A stretch of 64,000 bases of DNA from Trypanosoma brucei (GCA_000002445.1 CH464491.1:2912001-2976000), one strand, 5' to 3'; shown: positions 1-35,400, numbered from the stretch's first letter. Notes: generated from the sequence alone by a model not told the origin. Made by a program: numbers and translations.

Positions 1-3
1 AAG

Positions 4-1605
4 GTGAAGCCACTTTCTGGTGATCATTTGCGGGGGAAAACAGAGGTGCGAAGCGATTGCTGGCCTTGTGGCTGCAAGAGAACGTTTGTGTTGAGTCCTG
101 TTGACGGTGAATACGGATGCTCCGCGTTGCCGAAGGAGGATGCATCGAAGACTATTTCAAAGGCCAGCGAGAACGTTAAGGAGCAAGCTACCACTGGCGC
201 ACAAATACCAGTACAACCCGCAGCAACACCATTTAAGAGTGTATTTGATACACAGAGCAGTGGAGATGCGAAACCACCTGCAGCAACACCATTTAAGAGT
301 GTGTTTGGTACACAGAGCAGTGGAGATGCGAAACCACCTGCAGCAACACCATTTAAGAGTGTGTTTGGTACACAGAGCAGTGGAGATGCGAAACCACCTG
401 CAGCAACACCATTTAAGAGTGTATTTGATACACAGAGCAGTGGAGATGCGAAACCACCTGCAGCAACACCATTTAAGAGTGTATTTGGTACACAGAGCAG
501 TGGAGATGCGAAACCACCTGCAGCAACACCATTTAAGAGTGTATTTGATACACAGAGCAGTGGAGATGCGAAACCACCTGCAGCAACACCATTTAAGAGT
601 GTGTTTGGTACACAGAGCAGTGGAGATGCGAAACCACCTGCAGCAACACCATTTAAGAGTGTGTTTGGTACACAGAGCAGTGGAGATGCGAAACCACCTG
701 CAGCAACACCATTTAAGAGTGTATTTGGTACACAGAGCAGTGGAGATGCGAAACCACCTGCAGCAACACCATTTAAGAGTGTATTTGATACACAGAGCAG
801 TGGAGATGCGAAACCACCTGCAGCAACACCATTTAAGAGTGTATTTGATACACAGAGCAGTGGAGATGCGAAACCACCTGCAGCAACGCCATTTAAGAGT
901 GTGTTTGGTACACAGAGCAGTGGAGATGCGAAACCACCTGCAGCAACACCATTTAAGAGTGTGTTTGGTACACAGAGCAGTGGAGATGCGAAACCACCCG
1001 CAGCAACACCATTTAAGAGTGTGTTTGGTACACAGAGCAGTGGAGATGCGAAACCACCCGCAGCAACACCATTTAAGAGTGTATTTGGTACACAGAGCAG
1101 TGGAGATGCGAAACCACCCGCAGCAACACCATTTAAGAGTGTATTTGGTACACAGAGCAGTGGAGATGCGAATTGTCGAGGGGGTGTTGTTTCCATTTGT
1201 TTAGATGGTGAAAGTTCTGTGACTAATTCTGCTTCTTCCAGTTGTCGCTCCACAGTTCAGGCTAATATTTTACATGATAGTGTTGGTGGGGGAGTTGTTT
1301 GTGTGGCTGATGATTTGAGTGGATACCAGAGCAATTCTCTTGATGAGGCTCTGAACGTTACGGGCCTCTCTCCCCTTTTTTCTGCTTTTGAGAGGATGAT
1401 GAATGACGCGAAGGAAAAGGTGTTGTCAGCCTTGAAGGAGGAGTTGAATCAAATGGTTTCCTGTGTTGGTGGCCGTGATTGCTGTAAGTGCGGAAGGGCA
1501 ATCCAAAGTGGTAGGGAAGTAAAGGAGAATTATAGGGGTAGAAATAAGTCCGGTGATAAAATAATGTGGGCTCATTTGGAGAATGCTTTCACTAAACCCT
1601 ATTGA
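4..1605 (+). CDS. FG-repeat protein, 3' part of a gene that starts upstream of the window (nucleoporin-like); 16 x 20-aa 'PAATPFKSVF(G/D)TQSSGDAKP' repeats followed by a unique Cys-containing tail
   Basis: The frame is open from the window edge (the track 'M' is a GTG, not a real start). There are 16 near-identical 60-nt tandem units encoding an xFG-type peptide (SVFG). It is co-oriented with the downstream genes. Stop codon at 1603-1605. Confidence 0.6.
   Translation: MKPLSGDHLRGKTEVRSDCWPCGCKRTFVLSPVDGEYGCSALPKEDASKTISKASENVKEQATTGAQIPVQPAATPFKSVFDTQSSGDAKPPAATPFKSVFGTQSSGDAKPPAATPFKSVFGTQSSGDAKPPAATPFKSVFDTQSSGDAKPPAATPFKSVFGTQSSGDAKPPAATPFKSVFDTQSSGDAKPPAATPFKSVFGTQSSGDAKPPAATPFKSVFGTQSSGDAKPPAATPFKSVFGTQSSGDAKPPAATPFKSVFDTQSSGDAKPPAATPFKSVFDTQSSGDAKPPAATPFKSVFGTQSSGDAKPPAATPFKSVFGTQSSGDAKPPAATPFKSVFGTQSSGDAKPPAATPFKSVFGTQSSGDAKPPAATPFKSVFGTQSSGDANCRGGVVSICLDGESSVTNSASSSCRSTVQANILHDSVGGGVVCVADDLSGYQSNSLDEALNVTGLSPLFSAFERMMNDAKEKVLSALKEELNQMVSCVGGRDCCKCGRAIQSGREVKENYRGRNKSGDKIMWAHLENAFTKPY
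215..1172 (+). repeat. Tandem array of ~16 x 60-nt coding repeats, with two unit variants: gtatttgata (D) and gtgtttggta (G)
   Basis: Direct reading: the unit 'gcagcaacaccatttaagagtgtRtttgRtacacagagcagtggagatgcgaaaccacct' repeats with only 2-3 variable positions. The unit order is D,G,G,D,G,D,G,G,G,D,D,G,G,G,G,G. Confidence 0.9.
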
Positions 1606-1757
1606 ATTTATTGAAGTGTTACTTTGATGCTAATCACCTTCTGTTGCAAGCGCTGGTGATATAAATTGTTAGTGGGTTTGTTGCGTGTTGACCTTTCTGC
1701 TCCTTCCAAATAATCACTTACTCTACCTGCAGTTCGTGTAACAGATAAAAGGTGTAG

Positions 1758-4700
1758 ATGTCCCTGGACCCCCGTTCCTGTGACGCCATTTGTGAAGAAC
1801 TTCATGCAGAATCGTGCATCTGTGACGGAGCTGGCATTCTCAATTTATGTCGACAGGTAAAAGAACTTCGAGTTGGAATTCGCCGTCTGCTTACTGAAGA
1901 CATACCGACTCTTGGAGACATCATCACAGAATTTCAAGAGCCACACCTGAGGGAGTTTAGGGACTTCCACCGTGGTGCCAGAAGAGATAATGTTGTCAGA
2001 ACTCCAACCGATATAGTTTTTGCCACAACATCACTCCTGCGTTGTTGCAACGAACTGAGTTCCAATGTTACGAGAGGATTCAACCGCCTAGCCAATAAGG
2101 AAACTGTTAAACTTAATACCCATGCAATCGGTTACGCACCTATATTTTCCAGAGAGAAATATAGCAGTTATCCACCCGCAACTGTGGAGACAGAGAAAAA
2201 CGAAAACAGAACAAAAGATAAGAAATTAAACAGTAATCATTGCGCAGCGCCACAGGTAAAAGCGGGTGGCGAGAAAGAGGGAAAAGCTAACCCGCAAGCA
2301 AGACACGAAACAAGTAGATCACTGGTGTCACAAAAAGAAATTTTGACATCTCGGCTAACTACTGTAGACAAGTATCCTGCATTTGGTCAAGCAATTACTG
2401 AAGATAAGCCTCTCGCATTTGGTCAAGGTGCGACTGCAGATAAGCCTCCCGCATTTGGTCAAGGAGTGACTGCAGATAAGCCTCCCGCATTTGGTCAAGG
2501 TGCGGCTGCAGGCACAACTCCCGCATTTGGTCAAGGAGTGACTGCAGGCACAACTCCCGCATTTGGTCAAGGAGTGACTGCAGATAAGCCTCCCGCATTT
2601 GGTCAAGGTGCGGCTGCAGATAAGCCTCCCGCATTTGGTCAAGGAGTGAATGCAGATAAGCCTCCCGCATTTGGTCAAGGAGTGAATGCAGATAAGCCTC
2701 CCGCATTTGGTCAAGGAGTGACTGCAGATAAGCCTCCCGCATTTGGTCAAGGAGTGACTGCAGATAAGCCTCCCGCATTTGGTCAAGGTGCGGCTGCAGA
2801 TAAGCCTCTCGCATTTGGTCAAGGTGCGACTGCAGATAAGCCTCCCGCATTTGGTCAAGGAGTGACTGCAGATAAGCCTCCCGCATTTGGTCAAGGTGCG
2901 GCTGCAGATAAGCCTCCCGCATTTGGTCAAGGAGTGACTGCAGGCACAACTCCCGCATTTGGTCAAGGAGTGACTGCAGATAAGCCTCCCGCATTTGGTC
3001 AAGGAGTGAATGCAGATAAGCCTCCCGCATTTGGTCAAGGAGTGAATGCAGGCACAACTCCCGCATTTGGTCAAGGAGTGACTGCAGGCACAACTCCCGC
3101 ATTTGGTCAAGGAGTGACTGCAGGCACAACTCCCGCATTTGGTCAAGGTGCGGCTGCAGATAAGCCTCCCGCATTTGGTCAAGGAGTGAATGCAGATAAG
3201 CCTCCCGCATTTGGTCAAGGAGTGACTGCAGGCACAACTCCCGCATTTGGTCAAGGAGTGAATGCAGATAAGCCTCCCGCATTTGGTCAAGGAGTGACTG
3301 CAGGCACAACTCCCGCATTTGGTCAAGGAGCGGCTGCAGATAAGACTCCCGCATTTGGTCAAGGAGTGACTGCAGATAAACCTCCCGCATTTGGTCAAGG
3401 AGTGACTGCAGGCACAACTCCCGCATTTGGTCAAGGAGTGACTGCAGGCACAACTCCCGCATTTGGTCAAGGAGTGACTGCAGATAAGCCTCCCGCATTT
3501 GGTCAAGGAGTGAATGCAGATAAGCCTCCCGCATTTGGTCAAGGAGTGACTGCAGGCACAACTCCCGCATTTGGTCAAGGAGCGGCTGCAGGCACAACTC
3601 CCGCATTTGGTCAAGGAGTGAATGCAGATAAGCCTCCCGCATTTGGTCAAGGAGTGACTGCAGATAAGCCTCCTGCATTTGGTCAAGGTGCGGCTGCAGG
3701 CACAACTCCCGCATTTGGTCAAGGAGTGAATGCAGATAAGCCTCCCGCATTTGGTCAAGGAGCGGCTGCAGGCACAACTCCCGCATTTGGTCAAGGAGTG
3801 AATGCAGATAAGCCTCCCGCATTTGGTCAAGGAGCGGCTGCAGATAAGCCTCCTGCATTTGGTCAAGGTGCGGCTGCAGATAAGCCTCCTGCATTTGGTC
3901 AAGGTGCGGCTGCAGGCACAACTCCCGCATTTGGTCAAGGAGTGAATGCAGATAAGCCTCCTGCATTTGGTCAAGGTGCGGCTGCAGGCACAACTCCCGC
4001 ATTTGGTCAAGGAGTGACTGCAGATAAGACTCCCGCATTTGGTCAAGGTGTGGCTGCAGATAAGCCTCCCGCATTTGGTCAAGGTGTGGCTGCAGATAAG
4101 CCTCCCGCATTTGGTCAAGGTGCGGCTGCGAATAAAGCTTCTGTATTTGGTCAAGGAGTGACTGCAGGCACAACTCCCGCATTTGGTCAAGGAGTGGCTG
4201 CAGATAAGCCTCCCGCATTTGGTCAAGGTGTGGCTGCAGATAAGCCTCCCGCATTTGGTCAAGGTGCGGCTGCGAATAAAGCTTCAGCATTTGGTCAAGG
4301 AGTGACTGCAGGCACAACTCCCGCATTTGGTCAAGGAGTGGCTGCAGATAAGCCTCCCGTATTTGGTCAAGGTGTGGCTGCAGATAAGCCTCCCGCATTT
4401 GGTCAAGGTGCGGCTGCGAATAAAGCTTCTGTATTTGGTCAAGGAGTGACTGCAGGCACAACTCCCGCATTTGGTCAAGGAGTGGCTGCAGATAAGCCTC
4501 CCGTATTTGGTCAAGGAGTGACTGCAGATAAGCCTCCCGCATTTGGTCAAGGAGTGACTGCAGATAAGCCTCCCGCATTTGGTCAAGGAGTGGCTGCAGA
4601 TAAGCCTCCCGTATTTGGTCAAGGAGTGGCTGCAGATAAGCCTCCCGCATTTGGTCAAGGTGCGGCTGCGAATAAAGCTTCAGCATTTGGTCAAGGAGTG

Positions 4701-6152
4701 ACTGCAGGCACAACTCCCGCATTTGGTCAAGGAGTGGCTGCAGATAAGCCTCCCGCATTTGGTCAAGGTGCGGCTGCAGGCACAACTCCCGCATTTGGTC
4801 AAGGAGTGACTGCAGGCACAACTCCCGCATTTGGTCAAGGAGTGACTGCAGGCACAACTCCCGCATTTGGTCAAGGTGCGGCTGCGAATAAAGCTTCAGT
4901 ATTTGGTCAAGGAGTGACTGCAGGCACAACTCCCGCATTTGGTCAAGGAGTAACTGCAGGCACAACTCCCGCATTTGGTCAAGGTGCGACTGCAGGCACA
5001 ACTCCCGCATTTGGTCAAGGAGTGACTGCAGGCACAACTCCCGCATTTGGTCAAGGAGTAACTGCAGGCACAACTCCCGCATTTGGTCAAGGTGCTGCTG
5101 CGAATAAAGCTTCAGTATTTGGTCAAGGTGTGGCTGCAGATAAGCCTCCCGCATTTGGTCAAGGTGTGGCTGCAGATAAGCCTCCCGCATTTGGTCAAGG
5201 TGCTGCTGCGAATAAAGCTTCAGTATTTGGTCAAGGTGCTGCTGCGAATAAAGCTTCAGTATTTGGTCAAGGAGTGGCTGCAGATAAGCCTCCCGCATTT
5301 GGTCAAGGTGCTGCTGCGAATAAAGCTTCAGTATTTGGTCAAGGTGCGGCTGCAGGCACAACTCCCGCATTTGGTCAAGGTGCGGCTGCAGATAAGCCTC
5401 CTGCATTTGGTCAAGGTGCGGCTGCAGGCACAACTCCCGCATTTGGTCAAGGAGTGACTGCAGGCACAACTCCCGCATTTGGTCAAGGAGCTGCTGCGAA
5501 TAAAGCTTCAGTATTTGGTCAAGGTGCGGCTGCAGGCACAACTCCCGCATTTGGTCAAGGTGCGGCTGCAGGCACAACTCCCGCATTTGGTCAAGGTGCG
5601 GCTGCAGGCACAACGCCCGCATTTGGTCAAGGTGCGGCTGCAGGCACAACTCCCGCATTTGGTCAAGGTGCGGCTGCAGGCACAACTCCCGCATTTGGTC
5701 AAGGAGTGACTGCAGGCACAACTCCCGCATTTGGTCAAGGTGCGGCTGCAGGCACAACTCCCGCATTTGGTCAAGGTGCGGCTGCGAATAAAGCTTCAGT
5801 ATTTGGTCAAGGAGTGACTGCAGGCACAACTCCCGCATTTGGTCAAGGTGCTGGTGGGTGTGTATCCAACTCTGTCTTTGGGACGACTCCGGCAAGCGGT
5901 GGATGTGAATTGGGTACAATATGTGGATTCGGCTCTGACCCGAGTGGAGTGAAGTCGTTGCGTGTTAACCTTGGTGCTAATTGCGGTGTAGGGACTCCTT
6001 CTGTTTTTGGTGTGCCCGGTCATGTTTCGAGTCCGCAAGTTGCTCCCTTTGGTTCCGCTGCTACGTCTCATGTTTTTCAGTCTTCTTCTTTTTCTAGTAT
6101 TGCCGGCAATTATAAGGCCACACCTGATTTTAAAAGTGTCTTTTCGCAGTAG
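1758..6152 (+). CDS. FG-repeat nucleoporin-like protein (about 97 x 12-aa 'PAFGQG[VA][TAN]A[DGN][KT][PTAS]' repeats); possible TbNup149-family orthologue
   Basis: ATG at 1758. The ~200-aa unique N-terminus is followed by ~3.5 kb of 36-nt in-frame tandem repeats, each carrying an FG dipeptide. The short unique C-terminus also contains FG/GFG. It sits immediately upstream of GNA1, matching my recollection of T. brucei chromosome 11 synteny, but this was not verified by search. Confidence 0.7.
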   Translation: MSLDPRSCDAICEELHAESCICDGAGILNLCRQVKELRVGIRRLLTEDIPTLGDIITEFQEPHLREFRDFHRGARRDNVVRTPTDIVFATTSLLRCCNELSSNVTRGFNRLANKETVKLNTHAIGYAPIFSREKYSSYPPATVETEKNENRTKDKKLNSNHCAAPQVKAGGEKEGKANPQARHETSRSLVSQKEILTSRLTTVDKYPAFGQAITEDKPLAFGQGATADKPPAFGQGVTADKPPAFGQGAAAGTTPAFGQGVTAGTTPAFGQGVTADKPPAFGQGAAADKPPAFGQGVNADKPPAFGQGVNADKPPAFGQGVTADKPPAFGQGVTADKPPAFGQGAAADKPLAFGQGATADKPPAFGQGVTADKPPAFGQGAAADKPPAFGQGVTAGTTPAFGQGVTADKPPAFGQGVNADKPPAFGQGVNAGTTPAFGQGVTAGTTPAFGQGVTAGTTPAFGQGAAADKPPAFGQGVNADKPPAFGQGVTAGTTPAFGQGVNADKPPAFGQGVTAGTTPAFGQGAAADKTPAFGQGVTADKPPAFGQGVTAGTTPAFGQGVTAGTTPAFGQGVTADKPPAFGQGVNADKPPAFGQGVTAGTTPAFGQGAAAGTTPAFGQGVNADKPPAFGQGVTADKPPAFGQGAAAGTTPAFGQGVNADKPPAFGQGAAAGTTPAFGQGVNADKPPAFGQGAAADKPPAFGQGAAADKPPAFGQGAAAGTTPAFGQGVNADKPPAFGQGAAAGTTPAFGQGVTADKTPAFGQGVAADKPPAFGQGVAADKPPAFGQGAAANKASVFGQGVTAGTTPAFGQGVAADKPPAFGQGVAADKPPAFGQGAAANKASAFGQGVTAGTTPAFGQGVAADKPPVFGQGVAADKPPAFGQGAAANKASVFGQGVTAGTTPAFGQGVAADKPPVFGQGVTADKPPAFGQGVTADKPPAFGQGVAADKPPVFGQGVAADKPPAFGQGAAANKASAFGQGVTAGTTPAFGQGVAADKPPAFGQGAAAGTTPAFGQGVTAGTTPAFGQGVTAGTTPAFGQGAAANKASVFGQGVTAGTTPAFGQGVTAGTTPAFGQGATAGTTPAFGQGVTAGTTPAFGQGVTAGTTPAFGQGAAANKASVFGQGVAADKPPAFGQGVAADKPPAFGQGAAANKASVFGQGAAANKASVFGQGVAADKPPAFGQGAAANKASVFGQGAAAGTTPAFGQGAAADKPPAFGQGAAAGTTPAFGQGVTAGTTPAFGQGAAANKASVFGQGAAAGTTPAFGQGAAAGTTPAFGQGAAAGTTPAFGQGAAAGTTPAFGQGAAAGTTPAFGQGVTAGTTPAFGQGAAAGTTPAFGQGAAANKASVFGQGVTAGTTPAFGQGAGGCVSNSVFGTTPASGGCELGTICGFGSDPSGVKSLRVNLGANCGVGTPSVFGVPGHVSSPQVAPFGSAATSHVFQSSSFSSIAGNYKATPDFKSVFSQ
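2368..5853 (+). repeat. Tandem array of ~96-97 x 36-nt coding repeats (FG-repeat module)
   Basis: Strict 36-nt periodicity, 'cc(t/c)gcatttggtcaagg(a/t)g(t/c)g(a/g)(c/a)tgcag(ataag|gcaca)(c/a)c(t/a)c'. A few variant cassettes are used combinatorially: VTADKP, AAADKP, VNADKP, VAADKP, VTAGTT, AAAGTT and AAANKAS. Confidence 0.95.
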
Positions 6153-6335
6153 AAGTTTATGGTTATGGGAGGTAACTAAAAAATCATGTGAATGAGGTGC
6201 TTAAATATTTTTGTTATTATACTTAAATTTCGTTAGATGATGTTCTTTGTGAAGGCGCTTTCGTTTGTTGTTTTGATGTGTAGTTCTTAGAGGTTATTCT
6301 TGCTAGCATCAGGACGAAAGTTGTGAAGCTATACA

Positions 6336-6779
6336 ATGACCGATATAGTGGACCTGGAACTTAGGGTGTTGGAGGAGAGTGACTTGTCCAGTCACTTGGA
6401 GCTGTTGGGGCATCTGACTGAGGCACCACCGTTGAGCGGGGTCGAACTCGCGAACATCGCGGACATGCGGAGGAGAGCTGGAATTGTAACTAAAGTGTTC
6501 TGTCACCAACCAACTGGAGGGATTGTGGGGTCAGCATCTCTAATGATTCAACCGAAATTCACTCGTGGCGGTAGGGCTGTAGGACACATTGAAGATGTCG
6601 TTGTAGACCCCTCGTACAGAGGGGCTGGACTTGGCAAAGCACTTATCATGGACCTTTGCGAAATATCTAGGTCGAAAGGTTGCTACAAAGTGATACTCGA
6701 CAGTTCTGAAAAGTCGCTTCCGTTCTACGAAAAGTTGGGGTTTCGAGCACATGAGAGACAAATGAGGCTGGATTTGTAG
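6336..6779 (+). CDS. GNA1: Glucosamine-6-phosphate N-acetyltransferase (GNAT family, GNA1)
   Basis: 147 aa. GNAT motif A 'GHIEDVVVDPSYRGAGLGKALI' and the C-terminal 'YEKLGF' are typical of GNA1 enzymes. Clean ATG start and stop. Confidence 0.8.
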   Translation: MTDIVDLELRVLEESDLSSHLELLGHLTEAPPLSGVELANIADMRRRAGIVTKVFCHQPTGGIVGSASLMIQPKFTRGGRAVGHIEDVVVDPSYRGAGLGKALIMDLCEISRSKGCYKVILDSSEKSLPFYEKLGFRAHERQMRLDL

Positions 6780-7020
6780 TTTTTTTTGTCTGCATTTTCG
6801 ATTTAACATGAGTATTCACTTATCTACTTTCAGCAAAGTGGTGGGGGTTACTGATGAAACGTAATGGGGAGAGACTGAGGTTATAGAGCGGCAAGTCAAC
6901 ATTGCATCCTGCCTTCGCATGTGTGCTCGTTCTATTATATCTGTGCTTGTGCGCTGTTTCTATTCTTCTGCTTTCTCACTCTTTACCATCAGTGTGTTTA
7001 CGTAGGATATCAACATTTTC

Positions 7021-8127
7021 ATGCACCGGGGGAGCCAACTTGACGTAGATCGGTACAGTGTTGTAAAGCACCTTGGAAGTGGGGGATTTGGTGATGCATT
7101 CCTTGTAAAGGATGCTAACGATGGCATGGAGTATGTGCTGAAGTGTTCAAAAACTGTTGGCAGTAATGACACACTGTTGTCCGAGGCACAGAATCTCTTG
7201 CTCACAACATGTGACCATGTTGTGCACTGTTTTGGTGTTTGGTTGGAACCTATGGGTAACAGGTGCTGTATGCTACTTGAATACTGTGATGGGGGGGACT
7301 TGGAGGATTACCTAAGTTACTCCTTTCCCCTGACAGAATCGGAGCTTGTTTCAATATTTGCGCAGCTGCTATTGGGTCTGGATCACATCCATCTTAAGCA
7401 TCTTATACATAGGGATATCAAATTGCAGAACTTGATGCTACACCGTTCTACGGGAGTTGTGAAGATTGGTGATTTCGGCATGAGCAAAGCTCTTCGCTTT
7501 ACGGACGAGGTCTCTTCCACAAGGCTTGGCACCCCTCTTTACACTTCACCAGAGGTTCTAAAAGGCCTTGGATATACAAGAAAAACAGATGTATGGAGCA
7601 TGGGTGTGGCGTTCTACCGTTTGATGACCAACAGACTTCCGTTCCCAGCTTCCAATGTGGAGGAGATGTATGAAAGCTATAGGACCACCCGGCCCGTGCA
7701 CCCTTGCCGAGTGCACAACGAATATTCCGAACCGCTTGGTGATTTGGTAATGAAGATGCTGACTAAGAGTAGAAGGAAACGGCCGAATGCGCGTGAGCTG
7801 CTTGCTCTTCCACTGTTTACGGAAACACTTAGTGCGCGTCCATGGCATCCGCCCCATCTTCGCGGATCAAACTACTTGTTTTCGTGTCGTCCAATGACCA
7901 ACATCAATATCCGGAGTCTTCCTTCCTTGGCTGCTGAGCGGGTTGGCGAGGTTTCGTATGGTGATCAGGTTCTTGTAAGTGAAGAAGAGGTGAGCAGTGA
8001 GGGTATGATGTGGTACAGGGTTCTTTATCCCCTGGAAGGATACTGCATTACAACTACAGATGGTCATCAGTTATTTCAGCGGGTTAGTGACCCTGCGCGT
8101 TTTCCCCCGATTTCGTCCCTAGAGTGA
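7021..8127 (+). CDS. Serine/threonine protein kinase, NEK-like
   Basis: Gly-loop 'LGSGGFGDAF', the VLK lysine, catalytic loop 'HRDIKLQNLML', 'IGDFGMS' and 'GTPLYTSPEV' (NEK-type activation segment), plus a ~90-aa C-terminal extension. Confidence 0.8.
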   Translation: MHRGSQLDVDRYSVVKHLGSGGFGDAFLVKDANDGMEYVLKCSKTVGSNDTLLSEAQNLLLTTCDHVVHCFGVWLEPMGNRCCMLLEYCDGGDLEDYLSYSFPLTESELVSIFAQLLLGLDHIHLKHLIHRDIKLQNLMLHRSTGVVKIGDFGMSKALRFTDEVSSTRLGTPLYTSPEVLKGLGYTRKTDVWSMGVAFYRLMTNRLPFPASNVEEMYESYRTTRPVHPCRVHNEYSEPLGDLVMKMLTKSRRKRPNARELLALPLFTETLSARPWHPPHLRGSNYLFSCRPMTNINIRSLPSLAAERVGEVSYGDQVLVSEEEVSSEGMMWYRVLYPLEGYCITTTDGHQLFQRVSDPARFPPISSLE

Positions 8128-26450: not shown

Positions 26451-29400
26451 ATGGGCACCGGTGCAGACGACGGGAAGGCGGGGCGGCATCAGCCAATGCC
26501 GCAAGTACAGAAGAAAGAAATCGTACACCGCAATCCAAACCATGTTGCACGGGATGTGTTTGATTTGCGTGGGACCAGTAACCCACTAGCTATGCAATTG
26601 TACAGCGACGGCATATCAAGTGGACCACTACTTGGCATTCCCAATCGTCTTGTGCGTGATCTTCAACCGCTTTCCACCAACGCACGTAAACGGTGTCACA
26701 GTGATGCCGCCTTCTCCCACCACAGTGGCGATGGCGCAGGCCATGACGGACGGACGACGAAGCACGGCACACTGCAGCTATACCGCCCCCCGGTATGTGG
26801 TGAAGAAGAGCTGAAGGAGCATTTCGCCGCCGTGGCGCTTGAGGGGAAAGAGGTGAGGGTACCGACGAAGCGGCACCGCTCTCGACCTGGGCGGCTTGAT
26901 CCACTAAAGGGTACTTTGCAATCATCAACCTCGGGTTCGCCATCATACGGCGAAAATGAGGGTAATGAAGGCAGAGAGGGGCAAAAAAATATAGGAGATG
27001 CAAATAATTCCGCGCCAAATGAGAACGTGGGGCCGATTCCACGGTTTACGAAGTTGCGATCAAACGCACCGAATGAGTTCACATATCTTGTGATGCGCCC
27101 TCGTGGGATACGCAGTCCCTACAATCCCTACGATTTGCAGGTAGTGTCGCATAGGGATGTTGACCCGTCTCATTATTACACAGTTTCCGCAGCCGGTGTG
27201 ACTAAATTCTCTGGCCATGAGGCTGAGTTTATTGAGTTACACACATGGGAACGGGATTGCCGTGTTTTCAATCAACTGAGGGAACTAGACGTTTTCCGTG
27301 AATACAAGAAGTGGAAGAGTTTTCTGTTGTGGCGTGGCCTTGTGCGCAACCACGCTATGTCGAACTGCAAAACTTTTCTCACGAAGAACCTTTTTCACGT
27401 CCATCCTCAACTGTCTGCTGCCCTACAAACTGTGCAGCGTATCTGTCTTAATTTTGTCAACAGCAGCAGAATCCACCCTCCCGCGACAGAGACGCGCACG
27501 TTGGAGGCTCTGTGCGCAACACTTGCAGCGCACCTCAACTTTCAGCGCAACCGACTTGACAAAATGATTAAAAACATTCGCGACACCGTTGAGCGCGCCG
27601 CGAAGGCGGCGATGTTGGCAGCACAAATAGAGCGGGAGAGTATTAGTGCCCTCCACGCAGAGGATGAAAAGAAAAAGAAGAAACTCATTGACGTGCGGGA
27701 ATTGGGAACACAACAGAAGCCTACTTACATTGAAATGTCACAGAAGAAGGCTGTCTGTCAGCGCATCACTGCGTTTATTCGTCTTTGTGATTACATAATC
27801 GTGAACTGTCTAACAAAGCTTGCCGCAACAGCGGTTGAGGATGTAGATCGCGACTTTCAGTACCCGAGGCCAGACAAACAGCAAGATTCGGTAACATCAC
27901 CTCTTAACAAGAATTCCTGGAGGGGAAAGCGGCAGGAAGGACACAAGGCTGAGGCACCAAAGCCGACAGGACCATTTACCGGCCCTATTCTTAGCCTCAA
28001 TGTTGTTTACAGGGAGGACAGCCAATCCATTGAGATTACACCGTCACTTGCCCACATAACTGAATGTGTGGAGGACGTGGTGGAAGATTACATAAAAACA
28101 CTGAGTGCTGTACCCCGGCTCTTGACGATGGATGCGTTCAAGGTATTCACTGAAAACGCCGCTCATGACTCCCAAAAGGAGGTCCTCTCTGGCCCTGCCG
28201 TTGGTGAAATGATCGTCTCAGAGGAGGCATATAAACAGCACATGACATCCGTTCGTTATGGAATCACAAGGGCGTTCGGCGACGTGGAGGAATATGTGAA
28301 TAGCTTCCAGTGCTTCAGAGATATGTACGTGGAGAATAGCAGTCTGGACGCTGATAGCATCCAGAAACGTACCCAGAACCTGGAGTTCTTCCGTGAGCGC
28401 CTGGCTCTCTACAAGTCGCAGAGCGACGCCATATCAACGAAGATACCAAGCTCGAAGGACGTGGCACTGTTTACAGTCTACACCGAGGAGTTACGGGACT
28501 TCTTTACACCGAGCCCCGTCGTTTGCCTGGAGACATTTCACCGTCTTCTTCCTGTCATTGCGCACCAACAGAACGAATTGCTGCTTGCGGATCTGCAAAG
28601 TTGCAATACCTATCTGGCAGCCCAGCCAAAGACAGTGGAGCATTACGTGGAATATCTTGCATACAACAAGGCACTTGAAGCCCGTTTTGATACTCTGGCA
28701 GCGTCTTACGACTTCGTCCGCGAGTTTTTCACTTTGCTGCAGGATGAAAAGGTTGAAATTGAGGAGGACCTTGAGGAGACATACCGAAGCGGGACTCGTC
28801 CGCAGTTTGAGAAGTTGCGTACGCAGATGCAAATCGTAGAGGACGCAAAAGATTCTCAACAGCGGTACTTCATTCGGAATGTGGATGAGCAGCTTGATGA
28901 GCTTCGACGGTCCATTGAGGACGTGTATAATCGAGCTGGGCAGCCTGTTATTGCCGATGCAAACGCGGATATGGATGAGGTGATTCATTTTATTACCGAT
29001 TTGCAGGCTGAGGCCGAAAGAATTGCCGCAAGGGAGAAAAAGCTTCGGCAATACCAAATTGCAATTGGGGCCGAAGAGACAGTCGTAGAGACAATGTCAG
29101 ATATGTTGAATGATGTGAATATCAAGGCGCGGTTATGGGTCGGGATGCGAGAGTGGGATGAGTTCGTGGAATCGTACGGGCCAATACCGTTCGATCAGCT
29201 CAATGTGCAGGAGGTGCAGGAAACTGTTCAAAAGTATGTGATGACTGTCAAGCAGGTGTCTACAAAGTTACCTGGAAATAGTGCGGTAAACAAATTAAAA
29301 TCAAAAGTGGAAGCATGGCGCATTCTTTTACCCATTTTACAGGCCCTGACGAACCCAAAGATGAAGTTGGAGCATATCACAAAAGTATCCAATGCCGTAG

Positions 29401-32400
29401 GACCGTTGAAGGACGATAATGGTGTCTCAAAGACCATTGCTGATTGGAACAATCAGTTCACCCTTGGCATGCTCCACTCGAATGAAGTCGTTAAGTTCAA
29501 GGATGAGATCGTCGCGATTAGCGCGGCTGCAACTGAGGAGGACAAACTGCAGCAACAGATCGACAAGGTCAATGCTCTCTGGAATGGCGGGGGCCCGAAG
29601 CCACCTGTAGAATTTCAGTTTCACAATCATAAAGAGCTTAAGGACGTCTACGTTCTTGTCGGTTCTTCGGTTGAGGATGTGATGGCTCTGCTGGATGACT
29701 CAGTTATTGCGATGTCAAGTATAGGCTCGAGTAGGTGCTGTCAGGGTGTTCTCCGCGCACAGGTGGACCGTTGGGAAAATCGACTTCGGTACATGCAGGA
29801 GACGTTGGACCGTTGGGTGGAGCTGCAGCGGCACTGGATCTACCTAGAAAACATTTTTTCCTCCGCAGAAATTCGTTCGCAGTGGAAGGACGATGCCAAA
29901 CGTTTCGAAAAAGTTGACCGCTTTTACCGCGACCTAATGCGGAAGGCGCATGATATGCCCACCGCCTATCGCGGGCTCCTCATCAATGCCCCAGTGGAGA
30001 CCGGTGAGCAACAGAATACGAAAACGCTCAAGTACGATCTCGAAGGGAATATTAAGGAATTAGAGAAAGTTTTGGCAAGTCTAGAGCGAAAGCTGGAAGA
30101 AAAACGCTGTGCATTCCCTCGGTTCTACTTCCTAAGCAACGACGATATGCTCGACATTTTTGCTAAGGTCAAGTCGCCTGAGTTGATCATGCCACATATG
30201 CTGAAGATGTTTGACGGTATTAAAACATTATCCTTCACGGAGACGAATGATATCACTCATCTTGTGTCGATGGAGGGGGAGCGTGTTGAGTTAGTGAACA
30301 AGAGCATCAAGGCGCGTGGGCCAGTGGAGGTGTGGATCGATATGTTGGAGCGGGAGATGTTCTCTACACTTCGCAAGCATGCTAACACCTGTCTCACTGA
30401 CTACGAGCAGCGTGGTGACCGCGAGTCATGGATGTTTCAGCATGCAGTGCAGCTTGTTCTGATCATGGAACAATTGCTGTGGACGCGTGGGGTGGAAGAG
30501 GCACTCACAAGTGAAAACCCTGCGGAGGCGATGAGTCGTTTCAAGGAAGCAAACTACAAAGCTTTGGAGAGCCTTGCCGGTCTCACAGCGAGGAAATTGT
30601 CGAAGGTGCAGCGTATTCTTCTTTCCACACTTATTACGATTGATGTTCATGGACGCGACTTGGTGGACGAGATGTATGAAAGCAATGTGCTAGACGTCAA
30701 AGAATTTGGGTGGACGAAGCAACTCCGCGTGTATTGGGAGCAAGATACGGACGGGTATGGTAATTGCTTTATAAGGCAGAACAACTCACGTTTTGTTTAC
30801 GGGTACGAATACCTGGGAGCTCAGGGGCGTCTAGTCATTACCCCTCTTACGGATCGCATTTACATGACTGTAACAGGTGCACTCAAGCTGCAGTTGGGAG
30901 CAGCTCCTGCGGGCCCCGCTGGCACAGGGAAAACAGAGACTGTGAAGGACTTAGCAAAGAATTTGGCACGCCAGTGTATCGTGTACAACTGCTCCGATGG
31001 TGTAACGTACAAGATGATGGAAAAATTCTTCTCAGGCCTCATTCAGACGGGAGCATGGACGTGCCTTGATGAGTTTAATCGAATCAATATAGAGGTGCTA
31101 TCCGTGATTGCCTCACAGCTATTTGAAATCAAGCTTGCGCTGCAGAATGGACTGGAGACATTCACGTTCCAGGGTACACCGAATGTTCGTGTGCGCCCCA
31201 CCTATGGTGCTTTTGTTACCATGAACCCCGGTTATGCAGGACGTACTGAGCTTCCTGATAACCTGAAGATACTCTTCCGTCCAGTGGCCGTCATGACACC
31301 TGACTTCCGCATGATCGCAGAAGTGATCCTGTATTCGGAAGGCTTCAAAAATGCGAAGGATCTTTCTCTTAAAATTACGCAACTGTACAAGCTTAGTTCG
31401 GAGCAACTGTCTCCCCAAGACCACTACGATTTCGGTATGCGTGCGCTCAAGTCCATTCTTGTAATGGCCGGTGACCTGAAGAGGTCGCAGCCGGATGTGG
31501 AGGAGGATCTTACTTTGATTGTTGCCTGTAATGATTCAAACGTCCCGAAGTTTGTCGCGGAAGATCTCCCGCTGTTTCGTGGTATTATGCAAGATCTTTT
31601 CCCTGGGGTCCACTTCCCCGAACGGCAGTATGAGGAATTGCTACCTGCCATGCAGAAAAGTATTGATGGGAATAAGTTGGTGGCACTCGATACGTGGGTA
31701 ACAAAAGGCATTCAGTTCTATGAAACGTTGATTGTTCGCCATGGTGTTATGTTGGTTGGTGTCACGGGGACAGGGAAGACAGAGATACGCACGTGTATAT
31801 CAGAGGCACTTACGTCAATGTCCGAGGCGGAATCAAGCAACCCCATGGCACGACCAGTGCATCAGTTTATCATGAATCCCAAATCTGTGATGATGCATGA
31901 GCTGTACGGTCTTTTAGACGTAAATACTAACGAGTGGCGAGACGGCGTTCTGTCAGTGATTGCGAAGAACTGTGTCCGTGAGTCTGAGGTTAACAAAGAT
32001 CACCGGTGGATTGTTTTTGACGGACCTGTCGATACACTTTGGGTGGAGTCATTAAACTCCGTTTTGGATGACTCCAAGCTTCTTTGTCTTGACAGTGGTG
32101 AGCGCATTAAACTTCCTGATACCATTCATATGTTGTTCGAGGTTGCCGATCTGGCAGTGGCGTCTCCCGCTACCGTGTCAAGGTGCGGTATGGTTTACCT
32201 TGACACCACAGATCTTCATTGGAGTGCCGTGGTGCGTCACTGGTCCGAATCCAAACTGGCTGAGGCTGGTGGGGAACCACAGTGCCGTGAGTTCATAGTT
32301 TCCCTGTTCGATGCCCATGTGCAGAAAGGGCTTGATTGGCTCGCAATGCAGAAGGTTCTGATTTCGGGTGGCATGGTGAATGTGGTGCAGTCAATGTGCG

Positions 32401-35400
32401 ATCTCTTTACAGCCTTAATTAAATGCAATAACGTTCAGCTTATGCCCGACCCACGATGTGAGGCAAAGCTCCAACATGACTCCAAAGTTTTCAAAGAGCG
32501 CAACGAACTTTGTGGCATCCTGTTTGCCTTCTCTTTTGTATGGTCAATTGGTGGGAACGTGGATGTGGCTTCAATGGACCTGTTTGACACATTTGTTCGT
32601 AATTTATTGGAGTCAGTGGTTCGCTTCCCTAATAGTGGTTCTGTATACGATTACACTATTGACTACGGCACGCGACTCTTTGTGCCTTGGGAAAGTCGTA
32701 TGGTGGAGTTTAAGTACGACCCGAAGATTCCCTTCTTTGATATACTCGTTCCCACTGTGGACACCATGCGGTACAGCGCGATCGCAAACACATTGATTCA
32801 ATATGGCAAGCCGCTACTCTTCAACGGCCAGACAGGTGTCGGCAAAACCGTGATCCTTATGGATCACCTCAGCCGCCATAAGGAAGAGCTGATGTTGTCA
32901 GTTATCGTTTTCCAGTTCTCCGCCCAGACATCGTCTGAACGAACGCAGGAACTGATTGAGTCGAAGTTGAAACAGAAGCGCAAGAACATCCTTGGTGCTC
33001 CTCCTGGACGGAAAGTAGTACTTTTCATTGATGACCTCAACATGCCAGCACTCGAGACGTTTGGCGCCTCGCCACCCATTGAACTGCTGCGACAGGTAAT
33101 GGGTAATGGAGGTTTTTATGACCGTAAGATAGCCGGTTTCTGGAAACACGTGCAGGATGTGACTGTTGTAGCCGCATGTGGCCCTCCGGAGGGCGGTCGG
33201 AATCCCATCACGGCGCGGCTGACGCGTCTCTTCCATCTACTGCATATACCTACCCTGAGCGATGAGTCCATGAAACGTGTCTTCCACTCAATTTTGCATG
33301 GGTGCTTCCAGGCGAGGAACTTCAGTATGGAAGTACGGGAGATGGCTAAACCACTTGTCGCGGCTAGTGTTGATATATTCAATAAGGTACGTGATGCAAT
33401 GAGGCCCAAGCCAGCTACACCTCACTACACGTTCAACCTGCGTGATCTGGCCAAGGTATTTCAGGGTGTCACGCAGGTGACTCAACGTGTCTGCAAAACA
33501 CGGTTGTCTATCACACGGCTTTGGATTCATGAGATGTTGCGCTGTTTTTTCGATCGCTTGGCAACGAAGGAAGATCGTCAATGTTTTACGGAGGAGCTCA
33601 TGATGGAGACGATGACGCGTCTCGTCCCTGGAAATCACGTGTATGCTGATTACTTCGAGAACAAGCCACTCGTCTGGGGTGATTTTCTGCGCATTGGTGC
33701 ATCAGAGAGAGTATACGAGGAGTTACCGGATGTTAGCAAACTTCCCAGTCTTTTTGAGGAGTATCAGGATGACTATAACACGTTTTTGACTGGAAGTGGT
33801 ATTGGGGCTTCGTCTGGGGGTGGTGGTGAAGAGGACGAAGGCGGCTCGGGAGGAGGGGCGTCGTCGTTGAATCTAGTTTTCTTCAAGGATCACTGTGAGC
33901 ATTTAGTGCGCATCATCAGGATCCTGCGGCAGCCCCGTGGTAACGCGCTGTTGGTGGGTGTTGGTGGCTCTGGCAAGCGGTCGCTAACACGACTTGCTGC
34001 GTATATTGCTGGACGGCAAACAGTTGAGATTTCCGTTGGAAAGGGTTACTCTATGAATGAATTTCATGAGTTCCTTCTTGAGCTGTATACTACCACCGGT
34101 GTGAATTGCAAGCCTACGGTGTTTCTGCTCTCCGACAACCAAATCGTACACGAGGGAATGCTGGAGGACGTGAACAGTATGCTAAACTCGGGCGAGGTTC
34201 CGTCACTTTTCACGGCTGAAGAGCGCGAGAAACGTGTCAATGCATGTCTGGAAGCTGCGCAACAGCGCGGTTTCGTAGATCGGGACGACGTCTACAACTT
34301 TTTCATTTCACGTGTCCGGGACAACACGCACATCGTCCTTTGCATGAGCCCCGTTGGAGACACATTCCGTGCCCGTTGCCGCCAGTTCCCATCTCTCACT
34401 AATTGCTGCGCCATAGATTGGTTTGATGAATGGCCGCACGAGGCGCTTCTTGGTGTGGCACAACAACTGTTTGACGACGAAGAAGATGGCATCTCGAACG
34501 AACTTCTACCCGTATTGGCCCCACTCTGTGTAGATATTCATACGGCAGTGATTGAGGTGGCGCACGAGTACTGGGAGGAATTGCGACGGCGCTACTACAT
34601 TACTCCCACCTCATATTTGGAGTTCATTGATTTTTACAAGGATCTGTACACCACACAACGCAAGTTATTGGAGGAACAGCTTTCTCGTGTTATCAACGGA
34701 AAGGAGAAGATGAAGGAGACCGACGAGACAATTGCCAAAATGCGCGTCGAGATTGAGACAAAAAGACCGCTGCTGGAGAAGGCGTCAAAGGAGACTGAAG
34801 AGGTCGTTGCTGATCTATCTGTGAGGCAGGCGCGGGCAAGTGAGGTGCAGGTTCAAGTGCGCGCCCAGCAGGACAGTGCTGCTGACCAGCAGAGGCATGC
34901 CTCGAAAATCGCTAACGAAGCTAATGCTCGTCTTGCCGAGGCCAAGCCTATCATTGACAGGGCTAAGGCTGCGCTAGACACCATTCAGGCCAGCGACTTA
35001 AATGAGCTGCGCTCCTTTGCGAACCCACCTTCAGCAGTTCTGAAGACGGCACAGGCTTGCATGGTGATGTTTGATCCGAAAGACTTCGGTGGTGCATGGT
35101 CGGGAAACACCGACTGGAAAGGCGCACGCGAATTTTTGTCGTACCGTCAGCTCCTCGATATGATTCGCAGCTATCCCACAGACAACGTGAAACCAGCTAT
35201 CTTGCAGAAAATGCAGAAGTACGTAAACGATGAGGAATTCACAGCAGAGATATGCTCCCAGAAGGGTTCTCAGACTTGCGGAAATCTTTGTTTGTGGGTG
35301 CATGCTGTAAATGAGTACTCCAAGGTTGTGAAGGAGGTGGCGCCCATGCGTGAAGCCGCGGCGGAAGCGGAGAGGCATCTTTCCGAAACGAACGCGAAAC

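What the first reader, a model, noticed from the sequence alone, without database searches (positions are those of the whole stretch)
4..6152. Two adjacent FG-repeat genes with different repeat lengths (60 nt and 36 nt): tandem paralogues, or one gene historically split
The 3' part of an upstream gene (4-1605; 16 x 20-aa 'PAATPFKSVF[G/D]TQSSGDAKP' units) lies 152 nt from a second FG-repeat gene (1758-6152). The 152-nt spacer contains a short pyrimidine stretch ('cctttctgctccttcc') and AG dinucleotides, so two separate mRNAs are plausible. However, spacers this short are unusual for trypanosome trans-splicing and polyadenylation. Both repeat peptides share a 'KPPA...FG' flavour, which suggests common ancestry followed by divergence in unit length. 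In the first array two codon variants, G and D, alternate in the order D,G,G,D,G,D,G,G,G,D,D,G,G,G,G,G.
Basis: partly seen in the sequence, partly recalled or inferred. Interest (0 to 1): 0.5.

Follow-up and report, generated by a model that had tools for sequence, protein, structure and literature searches.

The report
Adjacent trypanosome nucleoporin genes NUP149 and NUP140
These are the already described Trypanosoma brucei nuclear-pore genes TbNup149 (its 3' end) and TbNup140, two separate genes divided by an unusually short 152-base spacer that was published and tested experimentally in 2009, so the finding is real but ordinary.

Summary
There are 16 x 60-nt units in the order D,G,G,D,G,D,G,G,G,D,D,G,G,G,G,G, a 152-nt spacer, and about 97 x 36-nt units.

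The window's first 534 codons match the C-terminus of published TbNup149 (Tb927.11.11080) exactly. ORF 1758-6152 reproduces the published TbNup140 (Tb927.11.11090) figures: 140 kDa, 101 FG, 81 PAFG, 11 SVFG.

DeGrasse et al. 2009 already reported the "abnormally small intergenic region". Their Northern and Western blots indicated two separate messages. Later work placed both proteins in the cytoplasmic NUP76 mRNA-export complex.

New here: eight trypanosomatid genomes all keep Nup149 -> Nup140, and GNA1 follows wherever the contig reaches that far. All eight conserve the Nup149 C-terminus and stop (HL.NAF..*) and the Nup140 start. Spacers are 118-209 nt in four Trypanosoma species, 1644 nt in T. 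rangeli, 350 nt in Phytomonas and about 1 kb in two Leishmania. No fused protein appeared among 1.84 billion representatives.

The 60-nt (57-63) and 36-nt unit types are gene-specific and old. The T. brucei "KPPA...FG" resemblance is not significant (p = 0.11-0.19), and the non-repeat domains are unrelated.

"Two genes" is supported. "Tandem paralogues" and "historically split" are not. Already known, low interest.

The parts
1..1605 (+). 3' part of TbNup149 (Tb927.11.11080): last 534 codons plus the stop at 1603-1605. The gene starts upstream of the window.
   Evidence: The translation of 1-1602 is 100% identical to residues 146-679 of the third repeat domain of published TbNup149 (Obado 2016 S7 Fig; exact substring match).
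1..87 (+). Second half of the last Nup149 zinc-finger module (KVKPLSGDHLRGKTEVRSDCWPCGCKRTF). The first CxxC lies upstream of the window.
   Evidence: The module W.C..C.K.K.L.G.HL.G...VRSDCWPC..K.TF recurs in the published sequence and in the Phytomonas, Leishmania, T. congolense and T. grayi orthologues. There is no Pfam match.
217..1176 (+). Array of 16 x 60 nt (20 aa, PAATPFKSVF[G/D]TQSSGDAKP). Eleven units are SVFG and five are SVFD.
   Evidence: TRF 216-1172, 98% matches. Unit list and D/G order. Codon combinations: GTG-GGT x7, GTA-GGT x4, GTA-GAT x5.
1369..1593 (+). Helical C-terminal region of Nup149 (long helix about 1369-1470; terminal helix 1558-1593 with the conserved HLENAF motif).
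   Evidence: AlphaFold2 model: helices at residues 66-99 and 129-140 of the last 143 aa, pLDDT about 56-75 for the long helix, low overall (45.6). The HL.NAF terminus is conserved in 8 genomes.
1606..1757 (+). 152-nt intergenic spacer. It must hold the Nup149 3'UTR and poly(A) site and the Nup140 trans-splice signals and 5'UTR.
   Evidence: 3-4 stop codons in each frame, GC 0.39. The 'abnormally small intergenic region' with two messages by Northern blot is published.
1692..1732 (+). Predicted Nup140 trans-splice signal. Pyrimidine tracts lie at 1692-1707 and 1714-1730, followed by the first downstream AG at 1731-1732 (predicted 5'UTR 25 nt). Alternative AGs end at 1744, 1751 and 1757.
   Evidence: Sequence scan. 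The geometry matches Kolev 2010: the tract starts a median 43 nt upstream of the splice site and has a median length of 18 nt. This is a prediction, not a mapped site.
1758..6152 (+). TbNup140 (Tb927.11.11090), complete CDS of 1464 aa.
   Evidence: 140.36 kDa, 101 FG, 81 PAFG, 11 SVFG. These equal the published values.
1758..2159 (+). Conserved N-terminal helical (putative coiled-coil) domain of Nup140, the likely NUP76-dependent anchor.
   Evidence: It aligns from residue 1 in 8 species, with invariant M1, C12, L30, C31, L37, P50, L52, E61, H63, L64, S92, L93, R110, A123, G125 and Y126. BLASTP E values are 2e-8 to 9e-25. The AlphaFold2 model is all-helical but of low confidence, pLDDT 48.9. 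NUP140 pore localisation depends on NUP76.
2361..5848 (+). Array of about 97 x 36 nt (12 aa, FGQG-xx-A-[DKPP/GTTP/NKAS]-[A/V]). The three spacer subtypes number 46, 39 and 11.
   Evidence: TRF. Unit census and subtype map: 29 distinct 36-mers, DKPP-rich at the 5' end and GTTP/NKAS-rich at the 3' end, longest exact internal repeat 143 nt.
5849..6149 (+). Degenerate C-terminal tail of Nup140 with scattered FGs, ending KATPDFKSVFSQ (6114-6149), which resembles the Nup149 unit.
   Evidence: The SSF.S.A.N[FY] motif is shared with the Leishmania orthologues.
6336..6779 (+). GNA1 (glucosamine-6-phosphate N-acetyltransferase), the synteny anchor, 183 nt downstream of Nup140.
   Evidence: PDB 3fb3/3i3g at E=2.9e-91, and GNA1 structures from other organisms. 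An acetyltransferase gene occupies the same position in L. panamensis, L. tarentolae, Phytomonas and T. theileri.

Best explanation
The region holds the 3' end of TbNup149 and the whole of TbNup140. These are two separate, neighbouring genes of one polycistronic unit on T. brucei chromosome 11. Both encode FG-nucleoporins of the cytoplasmic NUP76 complex.

Shown:
- The sequences are identical to the published proteins.
- In eight trypanosomatid genomes the order is Nup149 then Nup140, followed by GNA1 wherever the contig extends that far. The Nup149 stop and the Nup140 start are conserved in all eight.
- No fused form was found.

Published:
- Two messages by Northern blot and two proteins by Western blot.
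- The two proteins co-purify with NUP76 and Mex67.
- NUP140 needs NUP76 to stay at the pore; NUP149 does not.

Inferred:
- The 152-nt spacer works as a minimal trypanosome processing unit. The pyrimidine tract at 1692-1730 and the AG at 1731-1732 direct spliced-leader addition, giving a 5'UTR of about 25 nt or less.
- Through the usual coupling, the same tract sets the Nup149 poly(A) site within 1606-1690. Both UTRs therefore sit at the extreme short end of the known range.
- The FG arrays are disordered docking surfaces for transport receptors. They are anchored by the helical segments on either side of the spacer: the Nup149 C-terminus and the Nup140 N-terminus.
- The arrays evolve by unequal crossing-over or gene conversion. 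Units are homogenised within a species but diverge between species, while each gene keeps its own unit type.
For: Identity:
- Exact 534-aa match to published TbNup149, including the D/G order.
- ORF2 has 1464 aa, 140.36 kDa, 101 FG, 81 PAFG and 11 SVFG, equal to the published TbNup140 values.
- GNA1 is the next gene.

Two genes:
- DeGrasse 2009 reports Northern and Western evidence.
- Kolev 2010 lists a Tb11.01.2885 transcript at 6.4 RNAs per cell. The gene is absent from the table of ORFs whose splice site maps inside the ORF.
- The two proteins depend differently on NUP76.
- The spacer has stops in all frames.
- The C-terminus HL.NAF..* and the N-terminus M..P.RLDA.C are conserved in T. brucei, T. 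congolense, T. grayi, T. theileri, T. rangeli, Phytomonas, L. panamensis and L. tarentolae.
- All 6 library hits carry the Nup140 domain starting within their first 8 residues (1-8 to 127-136).

Spacer mechanism:
- The pyrimidine tract and AG geometry fit the published medians.
- Pyrimidine-rich stretches are visible in the short spacers of the other three Trypanosoma species.
- Short spacers are conserved in the genus: 118, 152, 159 and 209 nt.

Concerted evolution:
- T. brucei units are 98% alike, but only 65% identical to the T. congolense consensus unit.

Function.
Against: - No spliced-leader or poly(A) site could be read for this spacer. Kolev Tables S4 and S5 were truncated in the held copy, and the Siegel and DeGrasse supplements are not held.
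- With the median poly(A)-to-splice-site distance of 142 nt, a splice site at 1732 would put the poly(A) site inside the Nup149 coding sequence. The real geometry must therefore be atypical.
- DeGrasse 2009 states that the L. major orthologue is a single polypeptide. This was not testable here.
- The helical anchor models have low confidence, pLDDT 46-49.
- Array copy numbers in any assembly may be collapsed or mis-estimated.
Confidence: 0.93

Rival explanations
1. Gene fission. Nup149 and Nup140 are the two halves of an ancestral single gene. It was split between two helical (coiled-coil) segments that still associate within the NUP76 complex. Some lineage, L. major according to DeGrasse 2009, would retain the fused form.
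For: - The published remark on LmjF28.3030.
- The two proteins co-purify.
- The predicted helical segments lie immediately on either side of the spacer.
- The spacer is very short in four Trypanosoma species.
Against: - There are 3-4 stops in every frame of the T. brucei spacer, and 9-17 per frame in the Leishmania and Phytomonas spacers.
- The stop and start positions are conserved in eight genomes, including two Leishmania species with spacers of about 1 kb.
- No protein among 1.84 billion representatives carries the Nup140 N-terminal domain at an internal position.
- A non-syntenic Nup149-like gene in an unidentified metagenomic contig is followed by RPB1, not by a Nup140-like gene.
Confidence: 0.05
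2. Tandem paralogues. The two genes arose by duplication of one FG-repeat gene. Unit length then diverged from a common KPPA...FG unit to 20 aa in one copy and 12 aa in the other.
For: - KPPA is shared in T. brucei.
- Within-species unit similarity is significant in T. congolense (p=0.003-0.016) and L. tarentolae (p<=0.001).
- The Nup140 tail KATPDFKSVFSQ resembles the Nup149 unit.
- SVFG units occur in both genes.
Against: - The T. brucei units are not significantly similar (p=0.11-0.19 for protein, 0.15 for DNA). The same holds for T. grayi and Phytomonas.
- The non-repeat domains are unrelated (E=16).
- The architectures are opposite: zinc-finger/FG modules followed by a C-terminal helix, against an N-terminal helix followed by an FG array.
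- The Nup149 unit type persists across trypanosomatids, and the Nup140 12-aa DKPxxFGQ unit across Trypanosoma, with FGQ-type repeats of other lengths in Leishmania and Phytomonas.
- Similar spacers could reflect shared composition or shared binding partners.
Confidence: 0.1
3. Assembly artefact. The short spacer, or the two arrays, result from misassembly of highly repetitive DNA.
For: - Arrays of 98% identical units are hard to assemble.
- Several orthologous loci show gaps or frame breaks inside the arrays.
Against: - The spacer and both flanking non-repeat domains are unique sequence.
- The same junction, with a short spacer, is found in independent assemblies of four Trypanosoma species.
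- The predicted protein size of 140 kDa agrees with the published protein name, size and tagging results.
Confidence: 0.02

Closest known systems
TbNup149 (Tb927.11.11080, formerly Tb11.01.2880) and TbNup140 (Tb927.11.11090, formerly Tb11.01.2885) of Trypanosoma brucei (DeGrasse et al. 2009; Obado et al. 2016)
   Same: The sequences are identical (534/534 aa for Nup149; identical length, mass and FG counts for Nup140). The adjacency and the 'abnormally small intergenic region' are the same as published.
   Different: Nothing differs. The window simply starts inside the third repeat domain of Nup149.
Yeast Nup82-Nup159-Nsp1 and human NUP88-NUP214-NUP62 cytoplasmic filament complexes
   Same: All are cytoplasmic-side complexes built on a beta-propeller plus coiled-coil scaffold (NUP76 corresponds to Nup82/NUP88). 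Each carries two FG-Nups and serves as the Mex67 docking and mRNA-export platform. One FG partner depends on the scaffold and the other does not.
   Different: NUP140 and NUP149 have no sequence or structural homology to Nup159/NUP214 or Nsp1/NUP62, no beta-propeller and no Dbp5/Gle1 binding site. NUP149 carries zinc fingers. No Pfam domains were found here.
T. cruzi serodiagnostic antigen Ag2 / CA-2 / B13 / TCR39 (12-aa repeat PFGQAAAGDKPS; TcCLB.508831.140, annotated as a nucleoporin)
   Same: It has the same 12-aa FG repeat family (DKPxxFGQxxxx). The T. grayi, T. rangeli and T. theileri orthologues of the window's Nup140 are named 'surface antigen 2 (CA-2)' in NCBI.
   Different: The T. brucei units read PPAFGQGVTADK, TPAFGQGVTAGT and ASVFGQGAAANK. 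No antigenic role is known for them. Orthology to the T. cruzi gene itself was inferred through the related species and was not tested on T. cruzi sequence.
Zinc-finger FG-Nups NUP153 / NUP358 (RanBP2-type zinc fingers)
   Same: They combine FG repeats with several small Cys4 zinc fingers in a peripheral nucleoporin. NUP149 is strongly biotinylated by Ran-TurboID.
   Different: There is no zf-RanBP Pfam match for the full-length orthologues. The 2025 study reports no obvious sequence or structural homology.

Membership tests
TbNup149 / TbNup140 (identity with the published genes) | Protein sequence identical to the published TbNup149 | tested here: met
   534/534 residues match exactly, including the D/G order.
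TbNup149 / TbNup140 (identity with the published genes) | TbNup140: about 140 kDa, 101 FG (81 PAFG, 11 SVFG), FG region about 209-1432, adjacent to Nup149 | tested here: met
   1464 aa, 140.36 kDa, 101/81/11, first FGQ at residue 208.
FG-repeat nucleoporin | Many FG motifs separated by short hydrophilic, low-complexity spacers | tested here: met
   Nup140 has 101 FG, 96 of them spaced exactly 12 aa apart. The window's part of Nup149 has 11 FG and 5 FD in 20-aa units.
FG-repeat nucleoporin | Structured anchor domain (coiled-coil) that tethers the FG region to the pore scaffold | tested here: inconclusive
   AlphaFold2 gives all-helical segments, but at pLDDT 46-49. The NUP76 dependence of NUP140 is published.
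FG-repeat nucleoporin | Localisation at the nuclear pore and binding of transport receptors | not testable with these tools
   Published: tagging, expansion microscopy and Mex67 co-isolation.
Tandem paralogues (duplicated gene pair) | Detectable homology outside the low-complexity repeats | tested here: not met
   BLASTP of the Nup149 C-terminal 143 aa against the Nup140 N-terminal 207 aa gives E=16.
Tandem paralogues (duplicated gene pair) | Repeat units more similar than their composition predicts | tested here: inconclusive
   T. brucei p=0.11-0.19, DNA p=0.15. T. congolense p=0.003-0.016. L. tarentolae p<=0.001 to 0.036. T. grayi and Phytomonas not significant.
Split (fission) or fused gene pair | The two ORFs can be joined by one frameshift or stop read-through | tested here: not met
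   The ORFs are in different frames, and the spacer has 3, 4 and 4 stops in the three frames.
Split (fission) or fused gene pair | A fused orthologue exists in some lineage | tested here: not met
   There are two ORFs in all 8 genomes. The 6 library hits all have the domain at the N-terminus. L. major itself, claimed to be fused, was not available.
Trypanosome trans-splicing / polyadenylation intergenic unit | Pyrimidine tract followed by an AG acceptor upstream of the start codon | tested here: met
   Tracts at 1692-1707 and 1714-1730, AG at 1731-1732. The tract starts 40 nt upstream of the AG, against a published median of 43.
Trypanosome trans-splicing / polyadenylation intergenic unit | Mapped spliced-leader acceptor and upstream poly(A) site | not testable with these tools
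   The relevant supplementary tables are truncated or not held. Only transcript abundance for Tb11.01.2885 was retrievable.
RanBP2-type zinc-finger nucleoporins (NUP153/NUP358) | zf-RanBP domain | tested here: not met
   There is no Pfam hit at E<=0.1 other than sub-threshold matches to unrelated zinc-finger families.

The most novel reading that the evidence does not exclude
The pair is an ancient fission product. A single ancestral zinc-finger/FG nucleoporin was cut between two adjacent coiled-coil helices, and those helices now re-associate in trans within the NUP76 complex. The very short spacer kept in several Trypanosoma species would be a remnant of that event, and a fused form might survive in some unsampled kinetoplastid, for example L. 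major as claimed in 2009. A weaker variant is that the two neighbouring FG arrays co-evolve or exchange sequence. That would explain the species-specific similarity of their spacers in T. congolense and L. tarentolae.
Probability: 0.07. Interest if true: 0.4.

Novelty: already known. Interest (0 to 1): 0.12.

Why it matters
It matters little beyond confirmation. The genes, their adjacency, the unusually short spacer and the one-gene-or-two question were published in 2009. The proteins have since been characterised as the FG components of the trypanosome cytoplasmic mRNA-export platform.

The modest additions here are comparative:
- The two-gene layout, with a conserved stop and start, holds across eight trypanosomatid genomes.
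- A spacer of 118-209 nt is shared by four Trypanosoma species but not by T. rangeli, Phytomonas or Leishmania.
- The 20-aa and 12-aa unit types are old and specific to each gene.
- Two Leishmania genomes do not show the fusion reported for L. major.

The spacer could serve as a natural minimal test case for coupled polyadenylation and trans-splicing.

Tried and rejected
- Word-indexed protein search with the TbNup140 N-terminal 207 aa gave no hits. The same index also failed to return the L. panamensis protein when queried with its own N-terminus. Absences in that index are therefore not informative.
- Exact look-up of the window's GNA1 protein found nothing on record.
- Spliced-leader and poly(A) data could not be obtained. 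The Nilsson 2010 supplements have no entry for these genes. The Siegel 2010 and DeGrasse 2009 supplements are not held. Kolev Tables S4 and S5 are truncated.
- Pfam found no family for either window protein. Rfam found nothing in 1-7200.
- AlphaFold2 models of the two helical domains had low confidence (pLDDT 48.9 and 45.6). No fold search was run, because the matches would be meaningless.
- An alignment of the short Trypanosoma spacers showed no conserved blocks apart from pyrimidine-rich stretches visible by eye.
- The long antisense ORFs (24..1253 and 2395..5919, minus strand) were rejected as periodicity artefacts of the repeats.
- The zinc-finger proteins of T. grayi (P0005) and the metagenome (P0004) were rejected as orthologues because their loci are not syntenic.

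Full report
**Observation.** The window has an ORF open from base 1 to a stop at 1603-1605, and a second ORF at 1758-6152 encoding 1464 aa. Tandem Repeats Finder reports two arrays: 216-1172 (period 60, 15.9 copies, 98% matches) and 2361-5848 (period 36, 96.9 copies, 85% matches). A direct count gives 16 units PAATPFKSVF[G/D]TQSSGDA(KP/NC). The spacer is 152 nt and contains the quoted pyrimidine stretch.

**Identity.** Translating 1-1602 gives 534 residues that are an exact substring of published TbNup149 (Tb927.11.11080). They are the last 534 residues of its third repeat domain, in Obado et al. 2016 S7 Fig. ORF2 has 1464 aa, 140.36 kDa, 101 FG, 81 PAFG and 11 SVFG. These equal the published figures for TbNup140 (Tb927.11.11090, formerly Tb11.01.2885; (A/V)FGQ repeats at 209-1432). 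The next ORF, 6336-6779, matches the PDB acetyltransferase entries 3fb3/3i3g at E=2.9e-91 and GNA1 enzymes from other organisms. I recall, but did not verify here, that 3fb3/3i3g is the T. brucei protein. The window is therefore T. brucei chromosome 11 and starts inside Nup149.

**What is already published.**
- Obado et al. 2016 show that the two proteins co-purify with each other, with TbNup76 and with Mex67.
- The 2025 PLoS Biology study places NUP76, NUP140 and NUP149 exclusively on the cytoplasmic side of the pore. Depleting NUP76 blocks mRNA export and removes NUP140 from the pore, but not NUP149. NUP149 carries zinc fingers and is labelled by Ran-TurboID.
- Kolev et al. 2010 list a Tb11.01.2885 transcript at 6.4 RNAs per cell. 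They do not list the gene among ORFs whose splice site maps inside the ORF.

**New comparative evidence on 'one gene or two'.** I fetched the orthologous loci from seven other genomes.

| Species | Locus | Spacer between Nup149 stop and Nup140 start |
|---|---|---|
| T. brucei | window | 152 nt |
| T. grayi | L007 | 118 nt |
| T. theileri | L009 | 159 nt |
| T. congolense | L006 | 209 nt |
| T. rangeli | L008 | 1644 nt |
| Phytomonas EM1 | L002 | 350 nt |
| L. panamensis | L001 | 1013 nt |
| L. tarentolae | L005 | 1043 nt |

- Species names were confirmed.
- In all eight genomes a Nup149-like ORF ends with a conserved C-terminus. It reads HLENAFTKPY*, HLENAFRKPK*, HLANAFRKDY*, HLANAFRKQY*, HLSNAFRKYY*, HLSKAFRKF*, HLSKAFRKL* or HLSNAFE*.
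- A Nup140-like ORF then begins with a conserved N-terminus (M..P.RLDA.C...) that aligns from residue 1.
- GNA1 and a protein kinase follow in L. panamensis, L. tarentolae and T. theileri, and GNA1 alone in Phytomonas; the other contigs end before that point.
- The four spacers checked (T. brucei, Phytomonas, both Leishmania) have several stops in all three frames: 3-4 in T. brucei and 9-17 in the others.
- A profile of the Nup140 N-terminal domain, searched against 1.84 billion representative proteins, found six proteins. In each the domain starts within the first eight residues and ends by residue 136. No fused form was seen.

The two-gene layout is therefore ancestral for trypanosomatids. 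The two Leishmania genomes available do not show the fusion reported for L. major, which I could not examine directly. One possible reason for the 2009 remark is that Leishmania Nup149 and Nup140 repeats resemble each other. That is my speculation.

**The spacer.** Kolev et al. report these T. brucei statistics:
- The median 5'UTR is 130 nt including the 39-nt spliced leader.
- The median 3'UTR is 388 nt, with a range of 10 to about 6000 nt.
- The pyrimidine tract starts a median 43 nt upstream of the acceptor and has a median length of 18 nt.
- The median distance from poly(A) site to splice site is 142 nt, with half of all cases between 123 and 178 nt.

A typical distance between coding sequences is therefore about 620 nt, so 152 nt is indeed short. 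It is not unique, however. ORF gaps within this window range from 140 to 1481 nt, and the next two gaps are 183 and 241 nt. In the spacer the tracts at 1692-1707 and 1714-1730 are followed by the first AG at 1731-1732. The tract starts 40 nt upstream of that AG, and the predicted 5'UTR is 25 nt. The Nup149 poly(A) site must then fall within 1606-1690. That gives a 3'UTR of at most about 85 nt and a poly(A)-to-splice distance at or below the published lower quartile. This is feasible within the published extremes but is a prediction. The site tables I could reach were truncated or absent.

**Repeats: paralogy?** Each gene keeps its own unit type across species.
- Nup149 orthologues have PFKS[VA]F units. 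These are 60 nt long in T. congolense, T. theileri and L. tarentolae, 63 nt in T. grayi and 57 nt in Phytomonas.
- L. tarentolae also shows the three large zinc-finger/FG domains of the T. brucei protein.
- Nup140 orthologues in T. congolense, T. grayi and T. rangeli have the 12-aa DKPxxFGQxxxx unit; TRF reports period 36 in the first two. The part of the T. theileri gene that is assembled shows a related 48-nt FGQ unit. Leishmania and Phytomonas have other FGQ-type lengths.
- Orthologous Nup149 units are significantly similar (p<=0.001). Orthologous Nup140 units are more weakly so (p=0.003-0.048).
- The T. brucei 20-aa and 12-aa units share only KPPA. This is not significant against composition-preserving shuffles, whether FG is scored (p=0.19) or neutralised (p=0.11), or at the DNA level (p=0.15).
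- Similarity between the two genes within one species is significant in T. congolense and L. tarentolae only.
- The non-repeat domains are unrelated (E=16).

Common ancestry of the arrays can be neither shown nor excluded. If real, it predates the trypanosomatids. Units are 98% alike within T. brucei but only 65% identical to the T. congolense consensus unit, which indicates concerted evolution.

**Mechanism.** Both proteins are FG-nucleoporins of the cytoplasmic NUP76 complex, the Mex67 docking platform. AlphaFold2 predicts helices only on either side of the spacer. They lie at residues 66-99 and 129-140 of the Nup149 terminal 143 aa and at residues 6-110 of Nup140. Confidence is low, with pLDDT of 46-49, in agreement with the published low-confidence coiled-coil predictions. 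I infer that these helical segments are the anchors and the arrays are the disordered receptor-binding parts. No Pfam or Rfam family matches.

**Verdict.** The feature is real and its description is accurate. It is already known and experimentally addressed. 'Two separate genes' is strongly supported. 'Tandem paralogues' and 'historically split' are not supported by the tests possible here. Interest is low.

Noticed in passing
window 2361-5848; P0009-P0011 (L007, L008, L009): The 12-aa FG unit of TbNup140 belongs to the same repeat family as the T. cruzi Chagas serodiagnostic antigen Ag2/CA-2/B13/TCR39 (PFGQAAAGDKPS). NCBI names the T. grayi, T. rangeli and T. theileri orthologues 'surface antigen 2 (CA-2)'. 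Recent papers already map Ag2 to a nucleoporin gene, TcCLB.508831.140.
   Followed up: partly
window 6114-6149: The last 12 residues of Nup140 (KATPDFKSVFSQ) resemble the Nup149 repeat unit (ATPFKSVFGTQ). The synonymous codons differ, so this is not a recent copy. Phytomonas Nup140 ends ...QNKSVFGV, whereas the Leishmania orthologues lack this extension.
   Followed up: partly
window 217-1176: Five of the 16 Nup149 units read FD instead of FG through a single G-to-A change (GGT to GAT), and so lose the FG motif. Only three codon combinations occur: GTG-GGT x7, GTA-GGT x4 and GTA-GAT x5. The T. congolense, T. grayi and L. tarentolae units seen are all FG.
   Followed up: partly
window 2379-5850: The Nup140 array is graded along its length. 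DKPP-type units dominate the 5' half, and GTTP- and NKAS-type units the 3' half. Local higher-order patterns such as N-T-K-K recur, and the longest exact internal repeat is 143 nt (4073 and 4361). All 97 FGQ codon triplets are TTTGGTCAA.
   Followed up: partly
window 24-1253 (-) and 2395-5919 (-): Long antisense ORFs of 409 and 1174 aa, and other-frame ORFs, run through the arrays. They are stop-free only because the repeat unit happens to lack stops in those frames.
   Followed up: yes
window 6153-6335 and 6780-7020: The next two intergenic gaps (Nup140 to GNA1, 183 nt; GNA1 to a protein-kinase ORF at 7021-8127, 241 nt) are also short. The order Nup149-Nup140-GNA1-kinase is conserved in Leishmania and T. 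theileri.
   Followed up: partly
upstream of the window (Tb11.01.2880): Kolev 2010 Table S14 lists a putative Pol II transcription unit that starts at Tb11.01.2880 (class 'Internal'). Nup149 may therefore be the first gene of its polycistron.
   Followed up: no
L004 10001-11839 (T. grayi DQ04_03411010, P0005); P0003: A second, non-syntenic protein family carries the same double zinc-finger module (W.C..C.K.K.L.G.HL.GK..VRSDCWPC..K.TF) but has a different, conserved C-terminal domain. It looks like a paralogue family of Nup149.
   Followed up: no
L003 10001-11557 (metagenome contig, P0004): A Nup149-like protein in an unidentified eukaryotic contig from an ENA metagenome has two zinc fingers, NPF[SA]K repeats and a C-terminal helical region. 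It is followed 108 nt later by RPB1 rather than by a Nup140-like gene.
   Followed up: no
L005 8001-11370; L006 1745-1910: The L. tarentolae Nup140 and T. congolense Nup149 coding sequences show frame breaks inside their repeat arrays in these assemblies. The Phytomonas arrays contain runs of N. These are probably assembly errors in repeats, and they mean that annotated lengths (196-633 aa) underestimate the proteins.
   Followed up: partly
window 26451-39179: A very long ORF (4242 aa, + strand) appeared in the window-wide ORF listing. It was not examined.
   Followed up: no
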